DNA of 64,000 nucleotides from Thermoplasmatota archaeon (GCA_029259055.1 JAPDJP010000014.1:5935-69934), one strand, 5' to 3'. Shown: positions 10,728 through 64,000, counted from the stretch's first letter. Notes: generated by a model not told the origin, from the sequence alone. Made by a program: numbers and translations.

Positions 10728-11658
10728 AAAAATTGATGCCATTTTTATAAAAACACCTGATGAAAATTTTTATTACTTCACAAATCTGGATGGGATATGG
10801 GAAAATAGCTTTGCAATTGTTTACCCCGATAGAATAGAGGTTATTTCTCCTCCATTAGAGGAAGCGAATGTAAATTTTTATAGAAATAAGAAAGAACTCG
10901 AAAAAATCCTTAAAGAAATGCTAGCAGTTGATAAAATAGGATTTAATGGGAGCAAATTATCCTATAAGGATTTCGTTTATCTCAAAAAAATTACAAAAGC
11001 AAAATTAATTGATATAAGTGATGAAATTAAAAAAATAAGGGTAATAAAGAATAAGGAAGAAATAAATTTAATAAGGAAAGCATGCAAAATATCACATTAT
11101 ATAATAAACAACATGGAGTTGGAAGGAAATGAAAAACAAATGGCAATTAAAATTGAATGTGAGATTAGAAGAAAAGGCGCTGAGCCAGCATTTCCTACAA
11201 TAGTTGCTTATGGAAAAAATAGTTCAATTCCTCATCATATGCCCACCAATAAAAAATTTTCAATGCCCGCATTAATTGATTTTGGAGCAAGGTATAAAAA
11301 ATATTGTTCGGATTTGACAAGAACATTCATAGCTAAAAGAGGAAAAAAGGTATATGAAATTGTTGAAACCGCATTGTATATGGCCATAGACGAAATGACC
11401 GAAGGAATAAAAGCTAAGGAAGTTTATGAAAAAATTGAGAAATATTTTAAAAAATATGGATATAAAATGAGGCATGCATTGGGGCATTCTATCGGTTTAC
11501 TTGTGCACGATGGTTTTTCATTAAGTAAGGAAGAAAGTTTGATATTAAGAGAAAATATGGTATTTGCCGTTGAGCCAGCAATATATACAAAAAATTATGG
11601 AATAAGAATTGAAGAAGATGTTATCATAAGAAAAAATAAAGCGGAAGTAATCCATTAG
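10666..11658 (+). CDS. M24 family Xaa-Pro aminopeptidase/prolidase
   Basis: Pita-bread fold with metal ligands: HHMP..., DFGARYKKYCSDLTRTF, HALGHSIGLLVHDG and AVEPAIY motifs. Start uncertain (overlaps ksgA end). Confidence 0.7.
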   Translation: MKKLNQKKLWKYARHWKKIFEKIDAIFIKTPDENFYYFTNLDGIWENSFAIVYPDRIEVISPPLEEANVNFYRNKKELEKILKEMLAVDKIGFNGSKLSYKDFVYLKKITKAKLIDISDEIKKIRVIKNKEEINLIRKACKISHYIINNMELEGNEKQMAIKIECEIRRKGAEPAFPTIVAYGKNSSIPHHMPTNKKFSMPALIDFGARYKKYCSDLTRTFIAKRGKKVYEIVETALYMAIDEMTEGIKAKEVYEKIEKYFKKYGYKMRHALGHSIGLLVHDGFSLSKEESLILRENMVFAVEPAIYTKNYGIRIEEDVIIRKNKAEVIH

Positions 11659-36129: not shown

Positions 36130-37779
36130 ATGTATCCAAAAGAATTTGAAAAATCTATAAGAAAGGTTGAAGAAACAAGGCAAGAAAGGCTTAAAAAGCC
36201 TCCGGAGAGGTTAGGCGAAAAAGAAAAGGAAGAATTATTAAAGAAATGGCATCCAGATTATAAGCCGGAGGCAAAAAGAAAATTAAGAGTAGGAGTAAGT
36301 AAAGGAAGCATTGTACCAAATGAGGTTGCAGACATAATTGAGGCATATCCTTTAATTAATCCAGATGAGATCGATTTAAGCCAAATTGACTATGAAACCG
36401 ATATTTTAATTATTGGAGGTGGAGGTGCAGGAACTGCGGCAGCTTTATTTGCATACTATAATGGCATATCTCCAGAAAATATAATAATTGCAACAAAACT
36501 TCGCCATGGGGACAGCAATACAATAATGGCTCAGGGAGGAATACAAGCTGCAGACAAAGAAAATGATTCACCAGTTATCCATTATTTGGATGTTATAGGA
36601 GGAGGACATTTCGCAAACAAGCCGGAGTTAGTGGCTAGGCTTGTTTTAGATGCTCCTTTAATAATAAAATGGCATGAAGAACTTGGTGTAATGTATGATA
36701 AAAAGGAAGATGGAGAAATGATAACTATACATGGAGGAGGTACTAGCCGAAAAAGAATGCATTCAGCCAAAGATTATACCGGAATGGAAATAATGCGCGT
36801 GCTAAGAGACGAGGCAAGAAATATTGGTATAGAAGTATTGGAATTTTCTCCAGCCATTGATTTACTTATTGATGATGAGGGAAAAGTAGGCGGAGCATTG
36901 CTATATAATTTGGAAACAGACCAATATTATGTTGTAAAAGCGAAGGCAGTTATTCTGGCAACAGGAGGATTTGGAAGATTACATATACAAGGATTTCCAA
37001 CAACCAACCACTATGGAGCAACAGCCGACGGCCTAGTAATGGCGTATAGAGTTGGAGCAAAGCTTAGAGATATGGATTCTGTACAATATCATCCTACTGG
37101 TGTAGCGTATCCTGAACAAATAGTTGGGTTACTTGTTACGGAAAAGGTGAGAGGATTAGGTGCTCAACCTGTGAATGTGGAGGGAGAACAATTCGTACAT
37201 CCTCTGGAGCCAAGAGATGTTGAAGCAGCTGCAATCATAAGAGAATGTTATGGAAGAAATAAAGGTGTTATTACACCTACTGGAATGCGTGGAATATGGC
37301 TCGATTCCCCAATGATTGAAATAATACATGGAAAGGGAACTATTGAAAGAAGGCTTGGAGCAATGTTTAGAATGTTTAAGAGATTTGATATTGATATGCG
37401 TTACGAACCAATTCTTGTGTTTCCGACGCTTCATTATCAAAATGGGGGTATTGAAATAAATGAGAATGCTCAAGTTCTCGGCATAAATGGAATAATAAAG
37501 GGACTATTTGCAGCTGGAGAAGTAGAAGGAGGAGTTCACGGAAAAAATAGGCTTATGGGTAATTCATTGTTAGATACACAAGTATTTGGAAGAATAGCTG
37601 GAATTAATGCTGCAAAATATTCAAGAAAGGCAAAAGTAGGAAAATTGAGTTTAGAGCATGTCAAAAAATATGTAGAAGAGCTAAAAAAGGCAGGAATAAA
37701 GGAAGAAAGAAAAGCCCCAATCTTGCTTCCAGATTATAGAGAAAAGAAAGTATTATCGAGAGCAATAGACATATTATAG
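36130..37779 (+). CDS. fumarate reductase/succinate dehydrogenase flavoprotein-like (TfrA-like) with about 90-aa N-terminal extension
   Basis: ILIIGGGGAGTAAAL FAD motif. SVQYHPTG (QFHPTG-type) motif. C-terminal helical domain. Confidence 0.75.
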   Translation: MYPKEFEKSIRKVEETRQERLKKPPERLGEKEKEELLKKWHPDYKPEAKRKLRVGVSKGSIVPNEVADIIEAYPLINPDEIDLSQIDYETDILIIGGGGAGTAAALFAYYNGISPENIIIATKLRHGDSNTIMAQGGIQAADKENDSPVIHYLDVIGGGHFANKPELVARLVLDAPLIIKWHEELGVMYDKKEDGEMITIHGGGTSRKRMHSAKDYTGMEIMRVLRDEARNIGIEVLEFSPAIDLLIDDEGKVGGALLYNLETDQYYVVKAKAVILATGGFGRLHIQGFPTTNHYGATADGLVMAYRVGAKLRDMDSVQYHPTGVAYPEQIVGLLVTEKVRGLGAQPVNVEGEQFVHPLEPRDVEAAAIIRECYGRNKGVITPTGMRGIWLDSPMIEIIHGKGTIERRLGAMFRMFKRFDIDMRYEPILVFPTLHYQNGGIEINENAQVLGINGIIKGLFAAGEVEGGVHGKNRLMGNSLLDTQVFGRIAGINAAKYSRKAKVGKLSLEHVKKYVEELKKAGIKEERKAPILLPDYREKKVLSRAIDIL

Positions 37780-52362: not shown

Positions 52363-53700
52363 ATGGCATATTACCAACCAATGAGAAAAAAAGTAATAAT
52401 AATGGGGGCTGCGGGAAGAGACTTTCATAATTTCAATGTTTTTTTCAGAAATAATAAAGAATATGAAGTAATTGCTTTTACAGCTGCACAAATTCCAAAT
52501 ATTTCTGGGAGGAGATATCCAAAGGAGCTTGCAGGCGAACTTTATCCAAATGGCATACCAATTTATAGCGAGGATGAACTTCCAGATTTAATAAAGAAAC
52601 ATGGAGTGGATGAAGTTATCTTTTCATATACAGATGTTTCATATCAATATGTAATGAATAGATGCTCCATTGTAAATGTTGCTGGGGCAGATTTTAAATT
52701 ATTGAGTCCAGAGCATACAATGCTTAAATCAAAAAAACCTGTTATTGCAGTATGTGCTGTAAGGACGGGATGCGGAAAATCCCAATTTTCAAGAAAAATT
52801 TTCGAAATTTTGGCTAAAAGATGTAAAGTTGTGGCAATAAGACATCCAATGCCATATGGAGATTTAGCAAAGCAAAAATGCCAAAGATTTGCAAGTTATG
52901 AAGATTTAGACAGGCATGAATGTACCATAGAGGAAAGAGAAGAATATGAGCCGTATATTGATATGGGGGGCGTAGTATATGCGGGTGTTGATTATGAAGA
53001 AATCCTAAAAGAGGCTGAAAAAGAGGCAGATGTAATCATATGGGATGGAGGAAATAATGACTATCCATTTTATAAACCTGACTTGCATATTGTAATCGCT
53101 GATCCTCATCGAGCGGGACATGAACTTTCATATTATGCTGGAGAAATAAACTTGAGGATGGCTGATGTTGTCATTATAAATAAAATTGATACAGCAAAGG
53201 ATGAGGATATAAAGAAAATAGAGAAAAATGTTAGGAATGCCAATCCAAAAGCAAAAATAATCAAAGCTACGTCCCCTATAAAAATTGAAGGTGATATAAA
53301 AGGAAAAAGAGTCTTGGTCGTAGAGGATGGCCCCACTTTAACACATGGAGAAATGAAATTTGGTGCTGGAACAATAGCAGCCATGAAAGAAAATGCCGAG
53401 ATAATTGATGCAAGAAAATATGCTGTTGGTTCCATTAAAGAAACTTTTGAAAAATATTCTCATCTAGAAAAAATATTGCCAGCGATGGGATATGGAGAAG
53501 AGCAAATAAGGGATTTAGAAAAAACAATAAATTTGGCGGATTGCGATGTTGTTTTAGCTGCAACACCTATTGATTTAAAAAGAATCATAAAAGTGAATAA
53601 GCCAATTATTAGGGTAAGATATGGAGTGGGGGAAGAAGCAGAAAAAGAGTTAGAAAAAATAATCGAGGAGTTTCTAAAAAATGTTGATTTTTCCAGCTAA
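52363..53700 (+). CDS. cpgS: cyclic 2,3-diphosphoglycerate synthetase
   Basis: About 445-aa protein with N-terminal KVIIMGAAGRDFHNFN and P-loop-like CAVRTGCGKSQ. Matches my recollection of COG2403 cPGS. Confidence 0.65.
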   Translation: MAYYQPMRKKVIIMGAAGRDFHNFNVFFRNNKEYEVIAFTAAQIPNISGRRYPKELAGELYPNGIPIYSEDELPDLIKKHGVDEVIFSYTDVSYQYVMNRCSIVNVAGADFKLLSPEHTMLKSKKPVIAVCAVRTGCGKSQFSRKIFEILAKRCKVVAIRHPMPYGDLAKQKCQRFASYEDLDRHECTIEEREEYEPYIDMGGVVYAGVDYEEILKEAEKEADVIIWDGGNNDYPFYKPDLHIVIADPHRAGHELSYYAGEINLRMADVVIINKIDTAKDEDIKKIEKNVRNANPKAKIIKATSPIKIEGDIKGKRVLVVEDGPTLTHGEMKFGAGTIAAMKENAEIIDARKYAVGSIKETFEKYSHLEKILPAMGYGEEQIRDLEKTINLADCDVVLAATPIDLKRIIKVNKPIIRVRYGVGEEAEKELEKIIEEFLKNVDFSS

Positions 53701-54840
53701 CAATTCATCTTTTATCTCTCCCAATTTTTCTAATCTTTCCCTCACAATTTCTTCCACCCCTGAATCTACTTTTCCTCCAATTATTCCAATTCCCACCACT
53801 AATGGGTCAGTAATTGGTCTACCTATCTGAGACAGCATTTTAACATATGCTTCTTCCACATCATAATTTTTTACTATATCATCTGCTATTCTGGTAGCTG
53901 TTATATTGTAGAGTTTGCCAACATGTGTTACCGGGTTTTTTCCAGCAGCCGCCTCCATCGATACCGGGCGGTTCGGAGTAATTAAACCATTTATTCTGTT
54001 TCCTCTTCCTACTGAGCCATCGTCTCCATTTTCCATTGATAAGCCGGTAACAGTTAAATAAAAAATTCCTTTTTCATAATCATCTGCGGTATTTATGGCA
54101 AGGCTCACATCTTTATCTGTAAATTTTTTGGCAAAATCTAGTAAATCTTCCGCTACTTCTTCCTTTACACTTATATAATGGTCTGCATCTGGAATATATT
54201 TATCAACCATTGCTATTGCAACTGTAACATTTATCCTATCTTCTACTCTACAACTCATTACTTTAACATCCTGTCCTAATTCGGGATAGCTACTTTTTAA
54301 ATTGATGTTTATATATCTTTCCATTTGTAAAGTTAGCTTTTCTGTTTCAGAAAGAGGAGCATATCCAGCACCAACTGATGTATCATTTGCTAATCTTCTA
54401 CGTGGGTCATAAACGCTTTTTAAATCTTGACTGCCTTCCCATATTTTACAATCTATTATAACATCTGTATCTGCATTTAAATCTGGGAAATTCTTTTCTA
54501 AATATTCATGAGCTGCTCTAACAGCAATGGCCCTTATAGGCATTCTCTTATTTCCAAATAATGCTGTTGCTCTCCCTACAAGCAGTATATAGGCTGGTTC
54601 AATAATTACTCCTCCTCCAAATGAGGGTTGTGATTGTCCCCCTACAATTTGGCATTCATCCGTATTATGATGCAAAATATAACCGAAGTGCTGTAGATAT
54701 TCTTTACATAAAGCTCTTGATACGCTTTCCGCTAATCCATCAGCTATTGAATCGGGATGGCCTATTCCTTTTCTTTCTACTATTTCAACTTTTTGTTTTT
54801 CAACTGGGATGCTATTTAGATTTTCAATGGTAATTTTCAT
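53674..54840 (-). CDS. S-adenosylmethionine synthetase, archaeal type
   Basis: VEIVERKGIGHPDSIADGLAE signature of archaeal MAT. 388 aa. Confidence 0.8.
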   Translation of the reverse strand: MKITIENLNSIPVEKQKVEIVERKGIGHPDSIADGLAESVSRALCKEYLQHFGYILHHNTDECQIVGGQSQPSFGGGVIIEPAYILLVGRATALFGNKRMPIRAIAVRAAHEYLEKNFPDLNADTDVIIDCKIWEGSQDLKSVYDPRRRLANDTSVGAGYAPLSETEKLTLQMERYININLKSSYPELGQDVKVMSCRVEDRINVTVAIAMVDKYIPDADHYISVKEEVAEDLLDFAKKFTDKDVSLAINTADDYEKGIFYLTVTGLSMENGDDGSVGRGNRINGLITPNRPVSMEAAAGKNPVTHVGKLYNITATRIADDIVKNYDVEEAYVKMLSQIGRPITDPLVVGIGIIGGKVDSGVEEIVRERLEKLGEIKDELLAGKINIF

Positions 54841-54930
54841 AAAATGAGGATTGAAAACCTATACTTATATTTTTGTGTTTTACTTTTTCTATTATTTCTT
54901 TTTCGAGACTTTACATTAACTTTTTACATT

Positions 54931-54977
54931 AAAAGTATTTAAATATCCTTAAAAATATTCTAATTAGGTAGATAATC
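54931..54977 (+). promoter_or_regulatory. repeated promoter element copy A (TATA-like TTTAAATA)
   Basis: AAAAGTATTTAAATATCCTTAAAAATATTCTAATTAGGTAGATAATC then ATGCAA. Near-identical to copy B at 57039 and similar to copy C at 60851. Confidence 0.55.
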
Positions 54978-55370
54978 ATGCAAACGCAAAATCTGAAAAA
55001 AGTGTTTAGTGAGCATCCGGAGATCTTAGTAGCTTATCTATTCGGCTCTTTAGCAAAAGGAGAAGCAAATGAGAAAAGCGATGTAGATATAGGCATTCTT
55101 GTTAGTAAGAATTTCAAACCAGATAGATTTTACGAAGTGAAAATAGCTGAAGAGATAGAAAAAGAAGTTGGTTTAAGAAGAGTGGAGGTTGTGATATTAA
55201 ACGATAAACCCGTAAGCTTTCTTAACCAAGTCTTAAGATATGGTAAACTCATTTTCTGTAGAGATGATAAAGCGAGAGTTTCTTTTGAAACTATAGTAAC
55301 GAAAAAATTCATAGACCTTAAACCATATTTTGAAGAATATAATAAGATGAGGGTGTTGAAGTATGATTGA
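54978..55370 (+). CDS. minimal nucleotidyltransferase (MNT, HepT/MNT antitoxin-type)
   Basis: LFGSLAKGEANEKSDVDIGILV GS...DxD nucleotidyltransferase motif. 130 aa. Confidence 0.75.
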   Translation: MQTQNLKKVFSEHPEILVAYLFGSLAKGEANEKSDVDIGILVSKNFKPDRFYEVKIAEEIEKEVGLRRVEVVILNDKPVSFLNQVLRYGKLIFCRDDKARVSFETIVTKKFIDLKPYFEEYNKMRVLKYD

Positions 55371-55474
55371 TAAGGATTTAATAGAAGCTAAATTTGACAT
55401 AATAGAAACAATTCGCTTATTTAATTTCTTGAAGAAGATGCTTTGTAAAGATCTTGAAATTTCTTAAAAAGGTT
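55367..55474 (+). pseudogene. HepT (HEPN toxin) N-terminal remnant, 35 codons
   Basis: ATGA-overlapped ORF MIDKDLIEAKFDIIETIRLFNFLKKMLCKDLEIS. Resembles HepT N-terminus but lacks the Rx4HxY region. It runs into the 3' end of the convergent AbiEii gene. Confidence 0.45.
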
Positions 55475-56325
55475 TCAAATTCTTTAGTCGGTTTAACGAT
55501 AAACATGCTTCTTTCGAAAGGGTCTTCTAAAATTTCATTTCCGATATCGAAAAACTTTCTATTCTTTTCCAAGTTTTCTCTATATTTTTGATAATAAAGA
55601 GAAAAAAGTATCTTATCTATTATCTGTTGCTTTAATTTACTTACAAGAGTCAATTTTGGATCCACCACGAATATATCATAGAAATCTCTCAATTTTTGTT
55701 TCCTTCTTGTCAATATAGCTCTTATTTTTTCACAAAGGATTTCTTTTATATCGTAAACTACCACATTAAAAGGCTTATAAAATTCAAAAAAATCTTGAAA
55801 ATATGTTTTTTCGTTTCTATCTAACTTAGCGTTTGTTAATAATGTATTTGCTCTTCTTTCCTTAGGTTTAAACAAAATTTTCTCGACAAAATTTACTTGG
55901 ATCTTAATTATTTCTTCTTTATACCACATTTTAAACGTTACCATTCTTCCACCTCCTCCAAACTCAAAATATTTTTTATCCTCCAAATTAGAGAGAAAAT
56001 CGATATTCATCTTCTTTCCTACCAATTCAAGAAATTTTGCAAATTCATTTATTTTTTCTATCAGTTTCTTTCTTATCCTTTTCCTTCCTAATCCTTCCCA
56101 TATCTCCTGATTTAACCATGTAAAATCTAGATCAACACTAAACCTATAATATCCTAAATAACACTTTATCAAACAACTACCTCCCTTAAAGATGTAATTC
56201 CTTCCAAAGTTTTCTGAAATTTCTTTCAGAATTCTGTGAATTATAACATCTCTTTCAATTAACGATCTATTTTCTATTCCTGTTTTCTCGGCAATAAATT
56301 CAACAAATTCAGATAAGTCTGGCAT
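55417..56325 (-). CDS. AbiEii/DUF1814-family nucleotidyltransferase (type IV TA toxin)
   Basis: FKGGSCLIKCYLGYYRFSVDLDF core motif of AbiEii family. Confidence 0.65.
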   Translation of the reverse strand: MPDLSEFVEFIAEKTGIENRSLIERDVIIHRILKEISENFGRNYIFKGGSCLIKCYLGYYRFSVDLDFTWLNQEIWEGLGRKRIRKKLIEKINEFAKFLELVGKKMNIDFLSNLEDKKYFEFGGGGRMVTFKMWYKEEIIKIQVNFVEKILFKPKERRANTLLTNAKLDRNEKTYFQDFFEFYKPFNVVVYDIKEILCEKIRAILTRRKQKLRDFYDIFVVDPKLTLVSKLKQQIIDKILFSLYYQKYRENLEKNRKFFDIGNEILEDPFERSMFIVKPTKEFETFLRNFKIFTKHLLQEIK

Positions 56326-56935
56326 TTTCCATCATTCCTTTAACACTTTTTGGATAAAATTTCACATACTTTGCTAATCTTTTTCTATTCACTTTATTCC
56401 TGTATTCTTCAATAAAAGAAATAATCTTTTCTTCTGGTACAGACCTGTATCTAAAAATATAAATAAAATCTAGCAATGTTTTTTCAATATCGGAGAATGG
56501 AATTTCATCATTTTTAATCCCAAAGCTCAATAATTTTGGTTTTAACTTAATGAACTTCACTTTTTCTCCCATAACCTTTATTTCCTTTGCTCTGAAAATT
56601 TTATCGTTTATTATGAAGATAGTATCAAAAAATTCATGGGTTAAACCATTCAATCTTAATGCTGTGTACAAACCAAAATACCATTTTATCCTAAGTTTAT
56701 TCATTCCTAAGGAAAGAATTCGATAAATACTCAACGCTTTTTTCAATTTAAATTCTTCAATGTTCTTTACATAATATAACCCTCTCAGAATTCTTATCAA
56801 ATATCCATAGTAAATCATAAAGTTCAGTGTATTATCAATGTTTACCCTAAATCTTTTCAAGACTTTTTCTATTTCTTCCCTTTCTAAAACCTTTCCTCCA
56901 TATTCCGAAATCAAGTATTTTATCGCATTCCTCAT
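56309..56935 (-). CDS. AbiEi-like antitoxin/transcriptional regulator (tentative)
   Basis: Upstream, overlapping partner of AbiEii. About 200 aa with N-terminal wHTH-like region. Confidence 0.45.
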   Translation of the reverse strand: MRNAIKYLISEYGGKVLEREEIEKVLKRFRVNIDNTLNFMIYYGYLIRILRGLYYVKNIEEFKLKKALSIYRILSLGMNKLRIKWYFGLYTALRLNGLTHEFFDTIFIINDKIFRAKEIKVMGEKVKFIKLKPKLLSFGIKNDEIPFSDIEKTLLDFIYIFRYRSVPEEKIISFIEEYRNKVNRKRLAKYVKFYPKSVKGMMENARLI

Positions 56936-57038
56936 GATTGTTATTTATATAACAATAATTAAAAAAGTTTTTGGTTGTTATATAAATAACAAGATGGAAA
57001 TGACAATATTTTACGTCCTTTTATATATTTTACCACTA

Positions 57039-57087
57039 AAAAGTATTTAAATACTCTTAAAAATATTTCTAATTAGGGTAGATAATC
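57039..57087 (+). promoter_or_regulatory. repeated promoter element copy B
   Basis: AAAAGTATTTAAATACTCTTAAAAATATTTCTAATTAGGGTAGATAATC then ATGCAA. Confidence 0.55.
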
Positions 57088-58905
57088 ATGCAACGTACTT
57101 TACGAATTCCAAGCTTTGTAACACCAGAAGCATATTTTAAAGTCATAAGCGAAGAGTTAGCTCGCCGTATCCTTTCTCGACCTTACGAAGCAGATGCTTC
57201 TTTTTCCACTTACTCACAAGCTTTACCAAGCATAGAAAGTGAATATGTTACTCCTAGCAATATTTGTGTTTCTTATAATATTAATGGTAAGCCAACTTTG
57301 GAGCAATTGATTGATGGATTACCTTCAGAAGAAGAAAGAGGGATAGAGAAGATTTACAATTCGTTAAGCGAGGGGAAAAGGAAAGAGCTGTATGATGTTC
57401 TTTTCTATGATAAGCTTATTACCGATGTTGCTGATAGAAGTGAGATTAAAGAGCTTAGAAATAAAATCTACTTTTCTGAAATTGGTAAGAAAAGCAGAAA
57501 GGAAGTGAAAAGGAAAATAAGGGAGGAGATTGAGCGATATTTAGAGAATAACGTTAAGCCCATTATAGAAGAATATAGAAAAGAACTTCTTTCTCGAGCA
57601 AATGGAGAGAGCGATTTAACCAACGTAATTAATGAAATCTTTTCTCCTCAAAATGCAGGCGATTACCTAAGAGCTTTAGAATACATAAAGAAAATCGGAT
57701 TTCACAATTTTCTAGAAGAACTCGTGTTTGAAAACGAAAATCCTTCTTCTCCTGTTGAATATCTCCACGAAGCCATTGCAAGCGATGCAATGGCTGATTA
57801 TTTGCTAAGGAAAGGACTGTATCATATTAGCAAAGATGGTGCTCTTGAAAGAGCAAGCAGCTATGGAGAAATATTTCACAAGCTCTCTAAGCAAGAAAGA
57901 AAAAAAGTCAAGGAATATGAAAAGAAGCTTGGGTTGAGGAAGAGCAAGGCATTTGCAATTGGAGCTGCAAGCATTATATTAGGAGCGATAGGAGCAGCAG
58001 CTTATCATGCCTACAAAAGCGGAGAAAAGCTTAAAGGAGATGGCTCTTACTTTTTCCACAACCCTAATGATTACATAAAATATCTAAAATCAATATGGAA
58101 CAAACACAGCAACGATATTGACAACGATCGTATTCCTAATGATGTTGAGGAAAAGTATGGGTTGGATATGTTTGATGGAAAGGATGCCTGGAAAGATAAC
58201 GATGGTGACAAGTTTCCTGATTGGTTTGAAGAAAAGGTAAGTGGAACAGACCCAGTCATTCCAAATCATAGATGGGCGATCTTGGAGCATGGATTTAATA
58301 AAGGTGGGATAGGGTTATACAAAATATTTACTAAAAAATTAGGGGAGAAGGAGGTTCCTTGGGAGGCTTCGGGTTTAGGTTTCGATAAAGACAAAGTCAT
58401 ACTCCTTAAAGGTCCTAATGCAACATTTCAGAATTATCTTGATGCCATAAATGAAACGAAGCAAAAAATTTCTCCGAATGATTTTTTGGTGATAAGGATA
58501 TATGGGCATGGAGCTGAAGGGTGGTTTGGTTTTAATAACGGGAGCGAATTAAAAGATGATTATACGTCAGATTTGCATCAATATTCTGAAATAATAAAAC
58601 CAATAGAGGATGTTGAATGTGATCGTATAATCTTTTTTATAGACGCTTGTTATAGTGGTTCGGCAATACAATCATTTAAAAAAGCTTTATTTAAGTCTCC
58701 TATTATTGTATATACAAGTGGGAAAAGCGACGAAACAACTGCACCTCATATCGACAATTTTCTAAAAGCATTAGATGATAAAAAGCGGATAGAGATGGAA
58801 ACTATTTTATTTCCCTTTATGAAGCTTATAAAAGTGTATACGATGAAGTTTCAACATTTAAATATGAACCAGACTATCCTCAACAATACGATCCTTTTAA
58901 TTTAG
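57088..58905 (+). CDS. single-pass membrane protein: cytoplasmic N-domain, TM, DxDGD Ca-like motifs, extracellular legumain/GPI8-like (C13) peptidase domain
   Basis: TM AFAIGAASIILGAIGAAAYHAY at about aa 290. DNDGDKFPDWFE. His in RIYGHGAEGWF and Cys in IIFFIDACYSGSAI, paralleling legumain HG and EACESGS catalytic dyad. Confidence 0.6.
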   Translation: MQRTLRIPSFVTPEAYFKVISEELARRILSRPYEADASFSTYSQALPSIESEYVTPSNICVSYNINGKPTLEQLIDGLPSEEERGIEKIYNSLSEGKRKELYDVLFYDKLITDVADRSEIKELRNKIYFSEIGKKSRKEVKRKIREEIERYLENNVKPIIEEYRKELLSRANGESDLTNVINEIFSPQNAGDYLRALEYIKKIGFHNFLEELVFENENPSSPVEYLHEAIASDAMADYLLRKGLYHISKDGALERASSYGEIFHKLSKQERKKVKEYEKKLGLRKSKAFAIGAASIILGAIGAAAYHAYKSGEKLKGDGSYFFHNPNDYIKYLKSIWNKHSNDIDNDRIPNDVEEKYGLDMFDGKDAWKDNDGDKFPDWFEEKVSGTDPVIPNHRWAILEHGFNKGGIGLYKIFTKKLGEKEVPWEASGLGFDKDKVILLKGPNATFQNYLDAINETKQKISPNDFLVIRIYGHGAEGWFGFNNGSELKDDYTSDLHQYSEIIKPIEDVECDRIIFFIDACYSGSAIQSFKKALFKSPIIVYTSGKSDETTAPHIDNFLKALDDKKRIEMETILFPFMKLIKVYTMKFQHLNMNQTILNNTILLI

Positions 58906-59043
58906 CTAATAAAACATATTTGGCTCCTATTGTGGCGAAGGAATAACGATCAGTAGAATTGTGCTACTAATACTTCAATTGTTAATTTAAACAAAATCAA
59001 GAATAAGAAAATTTAAATAAATCCTTAGGTAAAAAATAAAATT

Positions 59044-59481
59044 ATGAAAAAGAAATTTCTAGTTGTAGTAGTACTTCTTTTTTTAATAGCCTTTACAAAG
59101 AATGTTTATGCTGCATGTAAAATTTCTTGTTATACTTGTAGTCCCTTCCAGGGTTGTCCTCAAATTCCATCTGGATGCTGGTATGAAGAAGGAAATTATG
59201 TAGAAAGAATATGTATAGTTGGAGATGTAAGTTACGGTCCTGGCGATGGGCAGGAAGAGGGTTGTGTAGATGCGGGAGATTACTGGGGATGTTCGTGTTA
59301 TGATCCTCAAGGATACTGCGGAAATGAGATTTGTTTAGCTACAAGTGAGGGATATAACGGAGCGACATGCGAAATAAAAGATCGATGCTTTTGGAGTGGT
59401 TGTGGTTGGAAAACTGTATCTGGTAAATGGGATGCATCTGAAGATAAATGTGTAAAATGTGATAGTAAAATAAAGAAATAG
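59044..59481 (+). CDS. secreted cysteine-rich small protein (signal peptide, about 24 Cys)
   Basis: MKKKFLVVVVLLFLIAFTKNVYA signal. Mature part dense in Cys/Gly/Asp/Tyr. Confidence 0.6.
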   Translation: MKKKFLVVVVLLFLIAFTKNVYAACKISCYTCSPFQGCPQIPSGCWYEEGNYVERICIVGDVSYGPGDGQEEGCVDAGDYWGCSCYDPQGYCGNEICLATSEGYNGATCEIKDRCFWSGCGWKTVSGKWDASEDKCVKCDSKIKK

Positions 59482-60296
59482 GAATTTTAGGAGATACTTC
59501 AGGAATATACGTCGGTTGTGGAGATGATAATCCCAACTCTGGCAATGGGCTATGCGAATCTGCATGTAATGAAACGGTTGCTCCAGAATGTGACGAACAT
59601 CCTCCTGGCTATCCATGTGGAACAAACAATCCCCATGCAACATGGGGGGTTTGTTGCTACGATGAGCTAACTGGAGAAACTTTTTGCGCAAGATCAGAGA
59701 ACTGCGGTCCTCCTGATGACGAAGTGAATACAGGGATTCCTTGTGATAACACAGAGGATTGTGTGACTTGTACCAATGAATGTAAATGTCCAGTACAACC
59801 ATGTGAAGATGAATGTACCTATGGAAAAAAAAGATGTAGTGGTTCTGTAGCTCAGCAATGTGGAGATTGTGACGATGATCCTTGTTATGAATGGTGTGAT
59901 GTTGAAGATTGTTCCAGCAAGTGGGATAAGTGGACATGTAAGCCTGGAACAACCAAACGTTGTTGGAAAGATGGATATTGTAGTAATGGAAACTGTTATG
60001 CAACCTATTCTTCTTGCTCTTGGTACAAAGATTGTGGTGCAGAGTGTGAAGCTGGAGATACAAAAACATGCCCTGATGGAACTGTTGTGAGTTGTGATAC
60101 TTCAACATGTACATTTCCAAGTTGTCCTTCTGAAATCCCAGAAGGAGCTATAAGAGTCTTCGTAACGTCTAAACAATATAGAGGAGATCTTGGTGGATTA
60201 GGTGGAGCGGATGCAAAATGTCAGGCGAGGGCTGACAATGTAAAAAGCATTAATCATTCGATAATCATCCGAGAATTATCTGATGAAGAAACATAA
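59469..60296 (+). CDS. cysteine-rich protein segment without own ATG; probable frameshifted continuation of 59044..59481
   Basis: Frame is open from 59469, 13 nt before the stop of the upstream Cys-rich ORF. No ATG until far downstream (track start 59724 is GTG). Same Cys-rich composition. Confidence 0.45.
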   Translation, partial: NKEIGILGDTSGIYVGCGDDNPNSGNGLCESACNETVAPECDEHPPGYPCGTNNPHATWGVCCYDELTGETFCARSENCGPPDDEVNTGIPCDNTEDCVTCTNECKCPVQPCEDECTYGKKRCSGSVAQQCGDCDDDPCYEWCDVEDCSSKWDKWTCKPGTTKRCWKDGYCSNGNCYATYSSCSWYKDCGAECEAGDTKTCPDGTVVSCDTSTCTFPSCPSEIPEGAIRVFVTSKQYRGDLGGLGGADAKCQARADNVKSINHSIIIRELSDEET

Positions 60297-60327
60297 TACG
60301 TTGATCTCTTTATCAATATGTTTTCGT

Positions 60328-60546
60328 TTACAAAAATTCCTCAATAGACTTTCTAGTTTGCTTAACTATATATTTCAATACAAATTTGCTTATCTCTTTA
60401 TGTAGTGGGACCCATGTTGTAAGAACTTTACCATTTTCCAATCGCTTTTTAAAAGTCATATGCTTTCTTGTTCTTACGTTCTTAAATCCATTTTTCTCTA
60501 GAACTTCGATTACTTTACGCTGAGGAAGAGGCTTTAATTTTACCAT
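60328..60546 (-). CDS. hicA: HicA-family toxin (YcfA-like mRNA interferase)
   Basis: LPQRKVIEVLEKNGFKNVRTRKHMTFKK pattern of HicA. 72 aa. Confidence 0.55.
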   Translation of the reverse strand: MVKLKPLPQRKVIEVLEKNGFKNVRTRKHMTFKKRLENGKVLTTWVPLHKEISKFVLKYIVKQTRKSIEEFL

Positions 60547-60775
60547 GCGCCTTACCTCTTAAAACAATAGAAGAGAACGTTATTGAAATAGACTTAAAAA
60601 CTTCAATATTTGGCTTTGGTGTGTCAGGATCTTCCATATATTCTTTAATTAAATCTTCCATATTTTCTTTTGCTTCCTTTTGAGTTTTTCCTTGGGTTGC
60701 TAACTCGAATATAGGGCAAAAAGCAATCCACCATTTATCTTCTTTAAACAAAATAATGGGAACCGGTACAGACAT
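60515..60775 (-). CDS. hicB: HicB-family antitoxin (UPF0150)
   Basis: MSVPVPIILFKEDKWWIAFCPIFELATQGKTQKEAKENMEDLIKEYMED matches HicB N-domain pattern. Start trimmed. Confidence 0.5.
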   Translation of the reverse strand: MSVPVPIILFKEDKWWIAFCPIFELATQGKTQKEAKENMEDLIKEYMEDPDTPKPNIEVFKSISITFSSIVLRGKAHGKIKASSSA

Positions 60776-60850
60776 ATCTTTATCACCTTGCATAATACTA
60801 AGTTTTGGCACATATAAATCTCTTTTCATTCAATATATATTTCACCACCA

Positions 60851-60895
60851 TCAAGCATTTAAATACCCTTAAAAATATTTCTAATAGGGGTGAGT
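60851..60895 (+). promoter_or_regulatory. repeated promoter element copy C
   Basis: TCAAGCATTTAAATACCCTTAAAAATATTTCTAATAGGGGTGAGT then ATG. Confidence 0.5.
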
Positions 60896-62770
60896 ATGCG
60901 TTTTGCCCTTCACATAAAACCAGAATACGTAGAAGCTGTGAGCAACGAGCTTTTAAAGAGAGCTAGAGGCTTGTTAGCGTATCCTATCGATACTACCAGC
61001 GTTAGAGTTTCAACAGATTTTCAGGAATACTGGAATGATAATGTGAATTACAATCCTGAGATTCCGAAAGAGATAAAAGAAATGTTAAATCTCTATGATG
61101 GTAGGGAGAAAGACAATATCTACAATGCTTTTATACAGGATAAATATATTGAGGAATTGATCAATGGAGCGAGGGAGATCAAAAGGAAAATTTACATGGA
61201 AAATGTGGGGAGAAAAAGCAGAAAGGAGATAAAAAAGGAGATAAGGCAAGCTGTAAAGAAGTATATGGAAGAAAATGCAGGATTGCTTTTAGAAAGATAT
61301 AAGGAAGAATTGAAGAGAAAAGCGGGAGATGAGTTGAAAAACAAAATAGAGGAATTTTTTTCCGCTAACAATTTGAAGGATTATTATGAAAAGTTGAGCC
61401 ACATAAAATTCGTTGGCATCGACTCTACTTTAGAAGATCCAACCAAGTCTGCTGAAGATTACTTACATTCCCTATTGAAGGAAGAGGCAGCAGCAGACTA
61501 TCTAACTAGAAAGGGGCTTTATTTCATTAGCGGAGACGGAGAGTTGAAGAGAGCAAAGAATTATAAAGAAATATTTCACAAGCTCTCTAAGCAAGAAAGG
61601 AAAAAAGTCAAGGAATATGAAAAGAAGCTTGGGTTGAGGAAGAGCAAATTATTAACATGGATATCTATTGGTAGTCTTCTAGGCTTATCAGCTGCAGCTC
61701 TTGCTTATGCTTCTATGGATCCAGACCATGATGGACTTAGAAATCTGGGCGAGATTCACCATAGAACAGATCCTCACAACCCGGATACAGACGGCGATGG
61801 TATTAACGATTATGAAGAAATATTTAAATATAATACAAATCCTCTTAAACCAGATAGCGATTATGATGGATTAACAGATTTTCAAGAAATCTTTAATTAT
61901 TCAACAGATCCGTTAGACCCGGATTGCGATAAGGATAACTTATTAGACGGTCAAGAAATTGAAAATAAAACCGATCCCTTTTCTATTGATACAGATGGGG
62001 ATTGGATAAGAGATGATCTTGAAATATTTAAACATCATACCGATCCTACAAAGTTAGATACAGACGGCGATGGTATAGATGATTTTAATGAACTTTTTAC
62101 ATATCCTCATATCTTGAATGCTACGAAAAAGGATGCCGAAAAATTACTAAGCAAGATTCCGAATGTACAGCCAATGCCATGGAATGAAAGTAATGACTAT
62201 ATTAAAGAAAATATAGGTGTTTATCCTTGGGAAGGTTTTATAGGAAGATATAAGGTAGATAATTGGGATCACATTATAATTTCTATTTCAAAGCGAGACC
62301 CATTAGTTAAGTTTTTTGCTAAGCACGCTTACATAGAATGGCTTGGACCTAAAAAAGATCCAGGAGGTGAGTGGTCCTATAGCAATGTGGGTATTCTAAA
62401 AACTTACGGTGGAAGAATATCTAAAGAATATGGAAGAGGTGGACCAGTTCAGCCGTCCCACTTCCTCACCTCTGGAAGAATCGGGACTTGTCAGCACGCG
62501 TCAGTTACTGCAGCAACACTTTTACAACTTATGGGATATGATTCAGTACTTGTTTATGGAGACTATGAACCTATTGGTCAAACATTAGGTCATCAATGGG
62601 TAGAGACTGTTATAGATGGTGAGGTATATGTTGTTAACTTTGATGGGTTAGCTCCAAGGGATGAATTTTATTTTTGGAATCCAGACCTTAAGAAAGTTGC
62701 AATTGGTGGGATAGAAGGAGCTTGTATACCTTATGACCCAGACTGGTATAAAAAAGGCTTACATGTGTAG
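60896..62770 (+). CDS. single-pass membrane protein paralog: shared cytoplasmic N-domain, TM, thrombospondin-type-3-like DxDxDGxxD repeats, extracellular transglutaminase-like Cys-His-Asp domain
   Basis: Start at ATG 60896 (track start is GTG). TM LLTWISIGSLLGLSAAALAYA. Repeats DPDHDG, DTDGDGINDYEEI, DSDYDGLTDFQEI, DTDGDGIDDFNEL. GTCQHAS ... GHQWVE ... D. Confidence 0.6.
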   Translation: MRFALHIKPEYVEAVSNELLKRARGLLAYPIDTTSVRVSTDFQEYWNDNVNYNPEIPKEIKEMLNLYDGREKDNIYNAFIQDKYIEELINGAREIKRKIYMENVGRKSRKEIKKEIRQAVKKYMEENAGLLLERYKEELKRKAGDELKNKIEEFFSANNLKDYYEKLSHIKFVGIDSTLEDPTKSAEDYLHSLLKEEAAADYLTRKGLYFISGDGELKRAKNYKEIFHKLSKQERKKVKEYEKKLGLRKSKLLTWISIGSLLGLSAAALAYASMDPDHDGLRNLGEIHHRTDPHNPDTDGDGINDYEEIFKYNTNPLKPDSDYDGLTDFQEIFNYSTDPLDPDCDKDNLLDGQEIENKTDPFSIDTDGDWIRDDLEIFKHHTDPTKLDTDGDGIDDFNELFTYPHILNATKKDAEKLLSKIPNVQPMPWNESNDYIKENIGVYPWEGFIGRYKVDNWDHIIISISKRDPLVKFFAKHAYIEWLGPKKDPGGEWSYSNVGILKTYGGRISKEYGRGGPVQPSHFLTSGRIGTCQHASVTAATLLQLMGYDSVLVYGDYEPIGQTLGHQWVETVIDGEVYVVNFDGLAPRDEFYFWNPDLKKVAIGGIEGACIPYDPDWYKKGLHV

Positions 62771-62975
62771 ACAAACTTAACGATTGAAACAATAATAAGA
62801 AGACAACAATTATCGCAACGATGAAATTCATTGCTTTGCTCTCGGAAGTGTTACCATGGTAGCTACGTGAGTTGAGATGCCAAGAAGCTTAGCTTCTCTA
62901 TTGATCAATGGAATTAACAGAACCAAATAAATTTAAATAATAAATTTGTGTTAATTAAATATATGCTGCGATATC

Positions 62976-63431
62976 TTGTTGGAATTATTCTTATTGTGTT
63001 ATTTTGTTGGAGGGGTTTTCTTCTTCACGAATATAAAAGAAAAGCCTATAAAATGTGTAAATGGAACGATTCCAAAAAGTATTTTTTGCTTAGTAGAAGA
63101 GCCGAAACTCTTACAAGAAAATAGCTACATGGAAATAAAATTCCTATTGGGAAAAAATGAAAAATTAAGTGAGAATGATTATTTAATTCTATTAACGGAT
63201 CTCGATAATGTTTCTGTTCAAAGTAATTTAAAATTCGTCAGATCAAGATATCAGTTTTCAGCGGATATAAAGAACGAAAAGAGAGTTGAAATTAACATTT
63301 CTGGTTACCTTCCGTCGAGAAACAAGGAAATATGGTTCAATAACTCCCTTATTCGCTTGCCAAATCATGTATTGTTATTCGAAATTCAAAAAACTGAGAA
63401 AGGTGTAAAGGTATATGAGATTTATGAATAG
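62976..63431 (+). CDS. small hypothetical protein with hydrophobic N-terminus
   Basis: ORF-track only. Alternative ATG at 62963 in another frame gives a 52-aa TM peptide. Neither is supported by motifs. Confidence 0.25.
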   Translation: MLELFLLCYFVGGVFFFTNIKEKPIKCVNGTIPKSIFCLVEEPKLLQENSYMEIKFLLGKNEKLSENDYLILLTDLDNVSVQSNLKFVRSRYQFSADIKNEKRVEINISGYLPSRNKEIWFNNSLIRLPNHVLLFEIQKTEKGVKVYEIYE

Positions 63432-64000
63432 AACTTTACTTATTACTTTGATATTGTTATTATCACTATTGAGCATTGGATATGCTCCAGATACATGTCC
63501 AATATGCACTCTAAGATATTGTTGTAGTCCGGGATATTGTGATGAAGGTACTATAACTTATTGGACACCAGCTCCATGTACCCATAATCCTGGTGCCCAA
63601 GAATCATCTTGTACAGCAGGTCAGTGGTCTCCATGCCCACAGAATGTGTGGAAGTGCTATGATTATTGTGTTCAGACAAGTGATGAAGAGTGTCCAACAG
63701 ATGAACCATATTGTTATATTATCCAACCAGATCCTAATCCACCTTGTACAGATAACGGGGTACCTGAAGTAGAGCATGGATACTGCGTAGAGTGCTATGA
63801 AAATTATCATTGTCCAGGAACTGATGATGCTTGTGAATGCGGAAAAGATTTTACTTGTAAACCATGTTCTGAAAATGAATATTGTGATAAAAATAGATGC
63901 CGATCAAAGAAAAAATGTGGGACTGGGGTGGGGGAGATGTGTAAGGGATATAATGTAGCAGAATGTGATTTCTTCTATTGTAGCAGAGAAGGAGAGTGTG
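63424..64000 (+). CDS. secreted cysteine-rich protein, 3'-partial (runs off window)
   Basis: ATG at 63424 gives MNRTLLITLILLLSLLSIGYA signal then CPICTLRYCCSPGYCDEG... Cys-rich to window end. Absent from ORF track because there is no stop. Confidence 0.55.
   Translation, partial: MNRTLLITLILLLSLLSIGYAPDTCPICTLRYCCSPGYCDEGTITYWTPAPCTHNPGAQESSCTAGQWSPCPQNVWKCYDYCVQTSDEECPTDEPYCYIIQPDPNPPCTDNGVPEVEHGYCVECYENYHCPGTDDACECGKDFTCKPCSENEYCDKNRCRSKKKCGTGVGEMCKGYNVAECDFFYCSREGEC

What the first reader, a model, noticed from the sequence alone, without database searches (positions are those of the whole stretch)
54931..60895. Three copies of a roughly 55-nt promoter plus start-codon element
The element ATTTAAATAYYCTTAAAAATATT(T)CTAAT(T)AGGG(T)... 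sits immediately upstream of the ATGs at 54978 (MNT), 57088 (paralog 1) and 60896 (paralog 2). Copies A and B are near-identical through the ATG and the second codon (ATGCAA). They form direct repeats flanking the MNT/HepT-stump/AbiE segment. This suggests a duplication or insertion by recombination between promoter copies, and shared regulation of the three genes.
Basis: seen in the sequence. Interest (0 to 1): 0.6.

Follow-up and report, generated by a model that had tools for sequence, protein, structure and literature searches.

The report
Reused archaeal promoter-plus-start-codon module
Three near-identical stretches of about 65 bases are copies of one archaeal promoter with a short leader and start codon; it belongs to a tiny orphan family of membrane-protein genes in a strain-variable gene island, and an inserted toxin-antitoxin cassette now uses one copy, so this is a clear case of promoter reuse rather than a new kind of element.

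Summary
Three copies (about 54918-54986, 57025-57094, 60837-60906) are the only ones in 64 kb. They score 52-60 bits against an element profile, and nothing else in the window exceeds 5 bits.

Each copy reads as an archaeal core promoter: A-rich BRE, TATA box TTTAAATA, A/T-rich proximal stretch. A roughly 10-nt leader with a Shine-Dalgarno-like AGG(G)T and the ATG follow.

Copies B and C are the native promoters of two paralogues. These share only about 40% amino-acid identity and belong to an orphan family (5 hits among 1.84 billion representative proteins). Copy A is the same module fused at codon 2 to an MNT-HepT toxin-antitoxin cassette.

Strain variants show the region is a presence/absence island between the AdoMet synthase and UbiA genes:
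- an empty site;
- a form with A, MNT, intact HepT and paralogue 1 in one apparent operon, where only a 19-nt SD-ATGCAA repeat precedes paralogue 1;
- the window form, where an AbiE module plus a full copy B replaces most of HepT.

A single recombination between promoter copies does not fit. The element is an ordinary kind of thing in an unusually well-documented setting. Transcription itself is untested.

The parts
54918..54986 (+). Element copy A. Upstream block CTTTTTACATTA, A-rich BRE AAAAGT (54931-54936), TATA box TTTAAATA (54938-54945), A/T-rich proximal stretch CCTTAAAAATATT, CTAATTAGGT with the predicted start site and an SD-like AGGT, then ATGCAA (54978-54983), now the first two codons of MNT.
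   Evidence: 60.0 bits. Present before MNT in every island-bearing strain variant: L050, L051, L054, L056, L058, L061.
57025..57094 (+). Element copy B, the promoter, leader and start of paralogue 1. TATA box 57046-57053, ATG 57088.
   Evidence: 58.8 bits. Conserved before the paralogue-1 orthologues of L056, L052 and L072.
60837..60906 (+). Element copy C, the promoter, leader and start of paralogue 2. TATA box 60858-60865, SD-like GGGGTGAG, ATG 60896.
   Evidence: 52.4 bits. Conserved before the paralogue-2-like gene of L062 and L063.
54978..55370 (+). MNT (MntA-type nucleotidyltransferase antitoxin), driven by copy A.
   Evidence: Pfam Polbeta 6.5e-24 and NTP_transf_2. The N-terminus is 3-4 residues longer than in its nearest homologues.
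55363..55467 (+). HepT stump. Only the first 16 or so codons (to about 55410) are homologous to the intact 133-aa HepT of strain L054. The remainder is read-through into the 3' flank of AbiEii.
55417..56325 (-). AbiEii toxin gene, part of the segment 55410 to about 57080 that is absent from strains L054 and L058.
   Evidence: Pfam AbiEii 2.9e-25; BLAST break points.
56309..56935 (-). AbiEi-like antitoxin/regulator gene, divergent from paralogue 1.
   Evidence: No Pfam hit. Hundreds of 60-66% identical homologues, some named 'AbiEi family antitoxin' or 'transcriptional regulator of viral defense system' by their sources.
56938..56992 (.). Two 18-bp palindromes, TTGTTAT-N4-ATAACAA, 19 nt apart, next to the AbiEi start. 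This is the likely AbiEi promoter/operator. It is separate from element B and separated from it by a poorly conserved spacer.
   Evidence: Inverted repeat I25, 100% complementary. Conserved in L052, L056 and L070.
57088..58947 (+). Paralogue 1: orphan N-domain, one predicted membrane helix, C13-peptidase-like C-terminal domain. Frameshifted near 58800; the ORF as read ends at 58905.
57867..57947 (+). Coding block shared with paralogue 2 (61567-61647), 80 of 81 bases identical, just before the membrane helix. It is the crossover zone of mosaic family members.
60328..60829 (-). HicA (60328-60546) and a HicB-like gene (60515 to about 60775/60829), divergent from paralogue 2. They have their own TATA-like box (rc of 60807-60814).
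   Evidence: Pfam HicA 4.6e-09; sequence read; the same linkage occurs in L062 and L063.
60896..62770 (+). Paralogue 2: the same N-domain at about 40% identity, a membrane helix, TSP3-type repeats and a transglutaminase-core-like domain.
61567..61647 (+). The second copy of the shared 81-nt coding block.
54881..64000 (.). Strain-variable island between the AdoMet synthase gene (53674-54840, - strand) and UbiA (beyond the window end, at about window-equivalent 64635). Absent from strain L060.

Best explanation
The element is a family-specific archaeal expression module. It comprises a core promoter (A-rich BRE, TATA box TTTAAATA, A/T-rich proximal element, pyrimidine-purine start site near TTAGG), a leader of about 9-13 nt carrying an SD-like AGG(G)T / GGGGTGA, and the start codon.

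It belongs to a tiny orphan family of single-pass membrane proteins. These have an unknown roughly 290-aa N-domain, a membrane helix, and a C13-peptidase-like or transglutaminase-like C-terminal domain. The genes lie in a strain-variable island of an uncultured archaeon.

Copies B and C are the promoters of two old paralogues. They are kept nearly identical by selection on promoter function, by gene conversion, or by both.

Copy A is the same module at the left edge of the island. An MNT-HepT toxin-antitoxin cassette sits between it and paralogue 1 and uses its SD, ATG and second codon.
- In some strains A appears to drive MNT-HepT-paralogue 1 as one operon.
- In the window strain, a segment carrying an AbiE module and a full promoter copy B has replaced seven-eighths of HepT. 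This gives paralogue 1 its own promoter again.

Shown: the copies, their exclusivity, their conservation, the strain variants and the junctions.
Inferred: promoter activity, the start site, the order of events, and which force keeps the copies alike.
For: **Promoter anatomy**
- The genome is archaeal: archaeal AdoMet synthase, Pus10 with the archaeal THUMP domain, HerA, RtcB/archease, proteasome alpha.
- Window genes with a clean TATA box have it 17-24 nt from the ATG, which suggests leaderless transcripts. In the element the distance is 30-34 nt, leaving room for a short leader that holds AGG(G)T.
- The layout matches the published archaeal scheme: TATA near -27, A-rich BRE upstream, A/T-rich PPE near -10, Y-R start, SD GGDGRD (PMC5316973).

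**Family-specific, not generic**
- No further copy in 64 kb.
- A scan of 185,579 species genomes gave only single chance hits.
- A scan of 241 million metagenome records found one locus, L052, and it is a homologous island.
- The N-domain has 5 hits in 1.84 billion representative proteins.
- The element precedes family members in L052, L056, L062, L063 and L072.

**Conservation above background**
- The paralogue N-domains are 50% identical at the DNA level, with third-base identity of 45/83 in conserved codons. The promoters are 86% identical.
- Against the roughly 82%-identical relative L052, the block TTTTACCAC...ATG is 56/60 identical, while the spacer next to it is unalignable.

**History**
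- L060 is an empty site.
- L054 and L058 have A, MNT, intact HepT, a 28-nt spacer and paralogue 1, with the 19-nt repeat at both cassette ends.
- The window, L050, L051 and L056 have the HepT stump plus AbiE plus copy B.
- Each arrangement is seen in at least two independent assemblies, except the empty site, which is seen in one (L060).
- AbiEi homologues are widespread, and at least one (L070) lacks the element.
- Other MNT-HepT cassettes have unrelated promoters.
Against: - No transcript data exist, so the promoter, start site and leader are inferred from sequence alone.
- The rest of the source genome could not be searched. The source is an NCBI contig of 72,222 bp and was not retrievable. 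Further copies before unrelated genes elsewhere cannot be excluded.
- The MNT promoter of another Thermoplasmata MAG (L064) matches copy C at 20 of 22 positions around the TATA box. It scores only 7.3 bits against the element profile. Part of the 5' half might still reflect a lineage-wide motif.
- The order of events is not resolved. L054 could be a deletion derivative of an ancestor that had intact HepT plus AbiE plus B.
- The shared ATGCAA adds only 3 informative bases beyond the ATG. The claim that MNT borrowed the paralogue's second codon is therefore weak.
- In L054 a weak A/T-rich box (AAATTTAT, 18 nt before the ATG) could still give paralogue 1 a promoter of its own.
Confidence: 0.7

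Rival explanations
1. The whole MNT / HepT-stump / AbiE segment entered, or was duplicated, in one step by recombination between two promoter copies. For example, a circle carrying one element copy could have integrated Campbell-style at the promoter of paralogue 1, leaving A and B as flanking direct repeats.
For: - A and B are direct repeats of 51/55 identity that exactly bracket the segment.
- The right junction of the strain difference lies inside element B.
- The family demonstrably recombines at short shared blocks.
Against: - L054 and L058 have A, MNT and an intact HepT without AbiE or a full B.
- L052 and L072 have AbiE, element and paralogue 1 without MNT.
- HepT is truncated at the AbiE junction, so MNT-HepT and AbiE arrived or changed in separate events.
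- No variant with a single element directly before paralogue 1 was found.
- No recombinase gene lies in the island.
Confidence: 0.12
2. The conserved part downstream of the TATA box (CTTAAAAATATTTCTAAT) and the upstream block (TTTTACCAC) are binding sites of a dedicated regulator. One of the neighbouring antitoxins might fill this role. The three genes would then form a small regulon, and the conservation would reflect operator function rather than the core promoter alone.
For: - Conservation covers the whole stretch from about -50 to the ATG, more than a TATA/BRE pair needs.
- Every copy lies next to a toxin-antitoxin module: MNT-HepT, AbiE, HicAB.
- TTAAAAATATTTCTAA is an imperfect palindrome, and CTAATTAG is a perfect one in copies A and B.
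Against: - CTAATTAG is not kept in copy C or in L062 (CTAATAGG, CAAATAGG).
- One-base indels shift the half-sites between copies.
- AbiEi has its own distinct operator 40-90 nt away.
- The conserved span equals the usual footprint of the archaeal pre-initiation complex (established knowledge, not tested here).
- Gene conversion can explain the identity without any operator.
Confidence: 0.15
3. The element is simply the common strong-promoter consensus of this organism, so the three copies carry no shared history.
For: - The TATA/BRE part is generic in type.
- The L064 MNT promoter resembles copy C around the TATA box.
Against: - About 25 other promoter regions in the window use TTTATATA-like boxes and share nothing else with the element.
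- The profile finds nothing above 5 bits elsewhere in 64 kb.
- Exact-pattern scans of public genomes and metagenomes recover only homologous islands or single chance hits.
Confidence: 0.03
4. The element is the end of a mobile element or a site-specific recombination site (attC-like, MITE or IS end), not primarily a promoter.
For: Structural junctions cluster at its 3' end: MNT fused after ATGCAA; the L052 truncated paralogue fused after ATGCGA; the AbiE segment ending in the SD.
Against: - No stable hairpin (z-scores -0.3 to -1.0).
- No terminal inverted repeats pairing the copies.
- No integrase or transposase in the island.
- No hits in viral contigs.
- Junctions that keep a promoter and a start codon are the ones selection would retain.
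Confidence: 0.03

Closest known systems
Archaeal core promoter with a short SD-bearing leader (BRE / TATA / PPE / Inr), as mapped genome-wide in Thermococcus onnurineus (PMC5316973)
   Same: An 8-bp A/T-rich TATA box with an A-rich stretch directly upstream. An A/T-rich stretch where the PPE is expected. A T-A step at the predicted start. An SD-like GG-rich motif a few bases before the ATG.
   Different: Ordinary promoters of one genome share only these short motifs. Here about 60-70 contiguous bases are 86-96% identical between genes whose coding parts have diverged to about 40% protein identity.
Conserved 5' expression regions of bacterial surface-protein multigene families (for example Mycoplasma vlp/vsp/vsa genes; recalled from memory, not tested)
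   Same: A small family of membrane or surface proteins with variable outer domains. The members share a nearly identical promoter region and show mosaic, recombining gene bodies.
   Different: No phase-variable homopolymer tract of useful length and no invertase or inversion sites. The conserved part stops at the start codon rather than including a signal-peptide region. The N-domain here is predicted cytoplasmic and is itself diverged.
MntA-HepT (MNT-HEPN) type VII toxin-antitoxin modules
   Same: The MNT gene overlaps HepT by the usual few bases. The intact HepT in strain L054 carries the Rx4H motif (RNFLVH).
   Different: In the window the toxin gene is reduced to a 16-codon stump. The cassette has no promoter of its own type: it uses the paralogue family's module. 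In L054 it appears to be co-transcribed with a downstream membrane-protein gene.
Toxin-antitoxin and defence modules accumulating in variable genomic islands and integron cassette arrays
   Same: Three different TA modules (MNT-HepT, AbiE, HicAB) are interleaved with variable cargo genes in a presence/absence island.
   Different: No integrase, no attC-like hairpins, and mixed gene orientation. The repeated sequence is a promoter at the 5' ends of genes, not a recombination site at their 3' ends.

Membership tests
Archaeal core promoter | 8-bp A/T-rich TATA box | tested here: met
   TTTAAATA at 54938-54945, 57046-57053 and 60858-60865.
Archaeal core promoter | Purine/A-rich BRE directly upstream of the TATA box | tested here: met
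   AAAAGTA (A), AAAAAGTA (B), ATCAAGCA (C; AAAAAGTA in L062).
Archaeal core promoter | TATA box centred about 26-27 nt upstream of a mapped transcription start, and transcription actually initiating there | not testable with these tools
   No transcript data. Indirect only: TATA-to-ATG spacing is 30-34 nt, against 17-24 nt for presumably leaderless genes of the same window.
Archaeal core promoter | A/T-rich proximal element near -10 and a pyrimidine-purine initiator | tested here: inconclusive
   AAAAATATT and the T-A step of TTAGG lie at the expected distances. Without a mapped start the positions are assumed.
   The variants found are an empty island site (L060), A-MNT-HepT-paralogue 1 (L054, L058) and the window type (L050, L051, L056). 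None has a single element directly before paralogue 1 at this site.
   Relative to L054, the AbiE segment ends in element B on the right but inside HepT codons 16-17 on the left.
Integron attC / cassette recombination site | Imperfect inverted repeats forming a stable single-strand hairpin, with an integrase nearby | tested here: not met
   Folding z-scores are -0.34, -1.04 and -0.68. No integrase among the island genes.
MITE / IS end | Terminal inverted repeats and target-site duplications bounding a unit | tested here: not met
   All copies are in the same orientation. No matching inverted partner was found in 54700-63000.
MntA-HepT type VII toxin-antitoxin | MNT nucleotidyltransferase domain | tested here: met
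   Pfam Polbeta 6.5e-24, NTP_transf_2 8.7e-12.
MntA-HepT type VII toxin-antitoxin | Intact HepT (HEPN) toxin with the Rx4-6H motif | tested here: not met
   The window holds only about 16 homologous codons. The intact 133-aa HepT with RNFLVH exists in L054 and L058.
AbiE type IV toxin-antitoxin | AbiEii nucleotidyltransferase toxin, an upstream overlapping AbiEi regulator, and paired inverted repeats in the promoter | tested here: met
   Pfam AbiEii 2.9e-25. AbiEi-named homologues. Two perfect 18-bp palindromes at 56938-56992. The role of the repeats as an operator is inferred from published AbiE work, recalled from memory.
Phase-variable surface-protein multigene family (Mycoplasma-type) | A switch mechanism in or near the conserved 5' region: a long homopolymer tract or site-specific inversion | tested here: not met
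   The longest tracts are A5, T3 and G4, with 1-nt differences between copies. No invertase and no inverted element copies.

The most novel reading that the evidence does not exclude
The promoter module and the 81-nt linker block are the fixed joints of a modular recombination system. The system would shuffle N-domains, membrane anchors and outer protease-like domains of an archaeal surface-protein family, in the way cassette-type antigenic variation works. New coding bodies, including a toxin-antitoxin cassette, would be plugged in precisely after codon 2. The interleaved TA modules would stabilise segments of the island, and the MNT antitoxin might be co-expressed with, or even regulate, the family.
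Probability: 0.1. Interest if true: 0.7.

Novelty: new member of a known kind. Interest (0 to 1): 0.35.

Why it matters
The case documents at base resolution, with natural strain variants, how promoters are reused in an uncultured archaeon. A toxin-antitoxin cassette sits between a gene and its promoter and takes over the SD and start codon. A second insertion then brings a fresh promoter copy.

It also flags an orphan, mosaic family of membrane-anchored protease-like proteins, together with a compact sequence of about 65 bp that is probably a strong portable archaeal promoter. That sequence could be tried as a genetic part.

It does not reveal a new type of genetic element.

Tried and rejected
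- **Species-genome scan.** An exact-pattern scan of 185,579 species genomes gave 49 single chance hits in unrelated AT-rich genomes. They score 8-25 bits against the element profile, while true copies score 44-67 bits. The source genome is not in that collection.
- **Viral contig scans.** Nothing found.
- **Word-indexed protein search with the paralogue-1 N-domain.** It found nothing, not even the protein itself. This was a retrieval failure, because the exhaustive search found the family.
- **Exact look-up of paralogue 2.** Not on record, so the 72-kb source contig could not be fetched.
- **Rfam and single-strand folding of the element and the 81-nt block.** No RNA family and no structure above shuffles.
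- **AlphaFold2 of the N-domain from a 2-sequence alignment.** Mean pLDDT was 48.5, too poor for a fold search, so none was run.
- **A full degenerate copy B hidden under the HepT 3' end in L054.** Only the last 19 nt are similar (7.5 bits). The 22 nt upstream match 9/22, which is chance level.
- **The palindromic TATA box of copy C as a bidirectional promoter for HicBA.** This is unnecessary, because HicB has its own TATA-like box at a better distance.
- **The element as part of the AbiE cassette or of the MNT cassette.** Rejected, because homologous cassettes elsewhere lack it.

Full report
**Observation**

The 23-nt core ATTTAAATAYYCTTAAAAATATT, allowing up to 3 mismatches, occurs only at 54937, 57045 and 60857, against 0.05 expected by chance.

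The similarity is longer than the core:
- B and C are 86% identical over 58 nt, reaching 20 nt upstream of the TATA box.
- A and B match at 51 of 55 positions, from AAAAGT through ATGCAA.
- A profile built from seven distinct copies scores the window copies at 52-60 bits. Nothing else in the 64 kb exceeds 5 bits.

**Setting**

The window is archaeal. It encodes an archaeal-type AdoMet synthase, Pus10 with the archaeal THUMP domain, HerA, RtcB/archease and mevalonate-pathway enzymes, and a proteasome alpha subunit lies in the flanking DNA. The nearest MNT homologues are labelled Thermoplasmata. This is only a weak pointer to the taxon, because such cassettes move between genomes.

The genes around the copies are as follows:
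- MNT, 54978-55370.
- A 16-codon HepT stump.
- AbiEii and AbiEi on the opposite strand.
- Paralogue 1 (57088 onward), C13-peptidase-like and frameshifted near 58800.
- A frameshifted cysteine-rich secreted protein.
- HicA and a HicB-like gene on the opposite strand.
- Paralogue 2 (60896-62770), with TSP3-type repeats and a transglutaminase-core-like domain.

**What the element looks like**

Reading 5' to 3', each copy has these parts:
- a block TTTT(T)AC(C)A(C/T)TA;
- an A-rich stretch, AAAAGT;
- TTTAAATA;
- YYCTTAAAAATATT(T)CTAAT;
- (T)AGG(G)T or AGGGGTGAG;
- 5-8 further bases and then the ATG.

In this window, genes with a clean TATA box have it 17-24 nt before the ATG, as expected for leaderless transcripts. 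In the element the distance is 30-34 nt. A start 21-23 nt after the TATA box would fall on the A/G of TTAGG. That would give a leader of 9-13 nt carrying an SD-like motif similar to those inside operons of the same window, such as CTAGGTGAGAAA-ATG at 36130.

This is the published archaeal layout: TATA near -27, A-rich BRE, A/T-rich proximal element near -10, pyrimidine-purine start, SD GGDGRD (PMC5316973).

The element does not fold better than shuffles, either as the promoter region or as transcript (z-scores -0.3 to -1.0). It matches no Rfam family. It has no inverted partner.

**Family-specific, not generic**

- Elsewhere in the window, promoters use TTTATATA-like boxes. TTTAAATA precedes genes only in the island.
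- A scan of one genome per species (185,579 species) returned 49 single hits in unrelated AT-rich genomes and no multi-copy genome.
- A stricter pattern scanned over 241 million metagenome records returned one locus, L052, which is a homologous island.
- An exhaustive profile search with the shared N-domain found 5 proteins among 1.84 billion representatives: the two paralogues, a third member P0022, a 71-aa stump, and one weak hit.
- The element stands in front of family members in every related locus recovered: L052, L056, L062, L063 and L072.
- More decayed versions precede a paralogue-1 stump in L062 and an N-domain-less paralogue in L052.

**Why the copies are so alike**

The two paralogues share about 40% amino-acid identity over 290 residues. 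Their N-domain DNA is 50% identical, and third-base identity in conserved codons is 45/83. Neutral sequence between them should therefore be randomised.

Two islands of identity stand out against this background:
- the promoter, at 86%;
- an 81-nt coding block just before the membrane helix (57867-57947 vs 61567-61647), with 80/81 identical bases and 25 of 27 third positions identical.

P0022 in L062 and L063 is a mosaic. It has a paralogue-2-type N-domain and a paralogue-1-type membrane and C-terminal part. Both parental homologies overlap on exactly this block. Recombination between family members at short shared blocks is therefore documented, and gene conversion may contribute to promoter identity.

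Selection is also indicated. Against the roughly 82%-identical relative L052, the block from TTTTACCAC to the ATG is 56/60 identical. The adjacent spacer cannot be aligned, and the neighbouring coding regions are 70-85% identical.

I cannot separate the two forces.

**Strain variants**

An exact look-up of the neighbouring AdoMet synthase recovered contigs from several samples. These contigs show three states.

- **Empty site.** In L060 the AdoMet synthase gene is 70 nt from UbiA. The whole region from about 54881 to UbiA is therefore a presence/absence island.
- **AbiE-less form.** L054 and L058 have copy A, MNT, an intact 133-aa HepT, a 28-nt spacer and an intact 693-aa paralogue 1. They have no AbiE and no full copy B. 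Only AGGTGCATAATCATGCAA precedes paralogue 1. The MNT-HepT cassette is thus bracketed by a 19-nt repeat (16/19 identical) consisting of the element's SD, ATG and second codon.
- **Window form.** The window, L050, L051 and the 94%-identical L056 have the HepT stump, AbiE and copy B.

By BLAST, L054 and the window are homologous over 54718-55408 and again from 57082 onward. Window 55410 to about 57080 therefore replaces 378 nt of L054. The left junction lies in HepT codons 16-17, 8 nt beyond the AbiEii stop. The right junction lies inside the SD of element B.

The AbiE-element-paralogue 1 linkage also occurs without MNT in the more distant L052 and L072. AbiEi homologues are very widespread, and one checked context (L070) keeps the AbiEi operator but has no element. 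Other MNT-HepT cassettes have unrelated promoters. The window's MNT is 3-4 residues longer at its N-terminus than its relatives.

**Interpretation**

B and C are the native promoters of the paralogues. A is the same module with an MNT-HepT cassette sitting between it and paralogue 1. AbiE is an independent mobile module that lies next to a paralogue promoter.

However, the A...B segment is the product of at least two events, not of one recombination between promoter copies.

Two orders of events remain open. Either the AbiE-plus-B segment replaced the HepT 3' end in an L054-like ancestor, or both forms are deletion derivatives of an ancestor that had intact HepT plus AbiE plus B.

A recurring feature is that junctions fall just after codon 2: ATGCAA|ACG for MNT, and ATGCGA|ATT for the N-domain-less paralogue of L052. 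This is what selection for expressed fusions would retain. It needs no dedicated mechanism.

**Regulation**

All three genes carry the same core promoter, so similar basal expression is likely. In L054-type strains paralogue 1 is probably co-transcribed with MNT-HepT.

A dedicated operator is not supported. The only perfect palindrome (CTAATTAG) is not kept in copy C or in L062, and one-base indels shift the possible half-sites. AbiEi has its own pair of perfect 18-bp palindromes 40-90 nt away from element B.

**Comparison and verdict**

The element is an archaeal promoter and translation-start module: a known kind of thing. Its unusual feature is that 60-70 contiguous bases are shared by diverged paralogues and by an unrelated cassette.

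It fails the tests for an attC site, a MITE/IS end and a phase-variation switch (see the membership table).

The setting is moderately interesting: an orphan, mosaic family of membrane-anchored protease-like proteins interleaved with three toxin-antitoxin modules in a presence/absence island. The finding itself is largely explained.

Main limits:
- no transcript data;
- the rest of the source genome could not be searched;
- the N-domain could not be modelled (pLDDT 48.5).

Noticed in passing
window 57867-57947 and 61567-61647: An 81-nt coding block (EIFHKLSKQERKKVKEYEKKLGLRKSK) is 80/81 identical between two paralogues whose remaining N-domain DNA is only 50% identical. It lies just before the membrane helix. 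It is the crossover zone of a natural chimera (P0022 in L062 and L063: paralogue-2 N-domain joined to paralogue-1 membrane and C-terminal part). No RNA structure was found.
   Followed up: partly
window 54881 to beyond 64000 (L050 to about 15617); L060 1047-1118: The whole region between AdoMet synthase and UbiA is a presence/absence island of about 9.7 kb. Strain L060 has the two genes 70 nt apart, with 30 unique bases in place of the island. No flanking repeats or recombinase were seen. The last island ORF runs antisense into the 3' end of UbiA, as if cut by the junction.
   Followed up: partly
window 56938-56955 and 56975-56992: Two perfect 18-bp palindromes, TTGTTAT-N4-ATAACAA, lie 19 nt apart directly upstream of the AbiEi-like gene. 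They are conserved in L052, L056 and, partly, in a 65%-identical homologue's locus (L070). This is the likely AbiEi autoregulatory operator.
   Followed up: partly
window about 58800 (paralogue 1) and 59481-59483 (cysteine-rich gene): Both genes are frameshifted. Paralogue 1 continues in another frame to 58947, and the cysteine-rich secreted protein continues in another frame to 60296. The same gene calls (605-, 145- and 190-aa products) appear in the independent assembly L050, so the frameshifts are probably real decay rather than sequencing error. Together with the HepT stump, the island holds several pseudogenes.
   Followed up: partly
L055 near 11164-11263; L054 1-80: In contig L055 the AdoMet synthase upstream region joins, after the bases TTTTAC, directly onto a hairpin-containing sequence (GCCCGCCTCC...GGAGGCGG). 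In L054 that sequence lies beyond UbiA and the proteasome alpha gene. Both contigs end there. It could be another structural variant or a repeat that breaks assemblies.
   Followed up: no
L064 3959-4003 (Thermoplasmata MAG GCA_021163175.1): The promoter of a 71%-identical MNT reads CACCATCAATTATTTAAATACC. It matches window copy C (CACCATCAAGCATTTAAATACC) at 20 of 22 positions, yet scores only 7.3 bits against the element profile. This could be coincidence, a shared upstream motif or distant common origin.
   Followed up: partly
window 59012-59043 and 62932-62975; L054 about 3990-3958 (- strand): The other island genes (the cysteine-rich secreted proteins and the 151-aa ORF) also use a TTTAAATA box, while promoters in the first 54 kb of the window use TTTATATA-like boxes. 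The island thus has its own TATA flavour.
   Followed up: no
window 57005-57035: Upstream of copy B the window strain has about 20 extra bases relative to L056 and L052. They form a local duplication of ATATTTTAC (ATATTTTACGTCCTTTTATATATTTTAC).
   Followed up: no
L052 187-493: A family member lacks the N-domain. A decayed element copy and ATGCGA are fused directly to the membrane-helix region (MRIGKGKKLKAVG...). It is followed by a frameshifted C13-like domain.
   Followed up: no
window 61755-62104: Four 69-nt-spaced repeats encode calcium-binding TSP3-type motifs (DxDxDG) in the outer part of paralogue 2.
   Followed up: no
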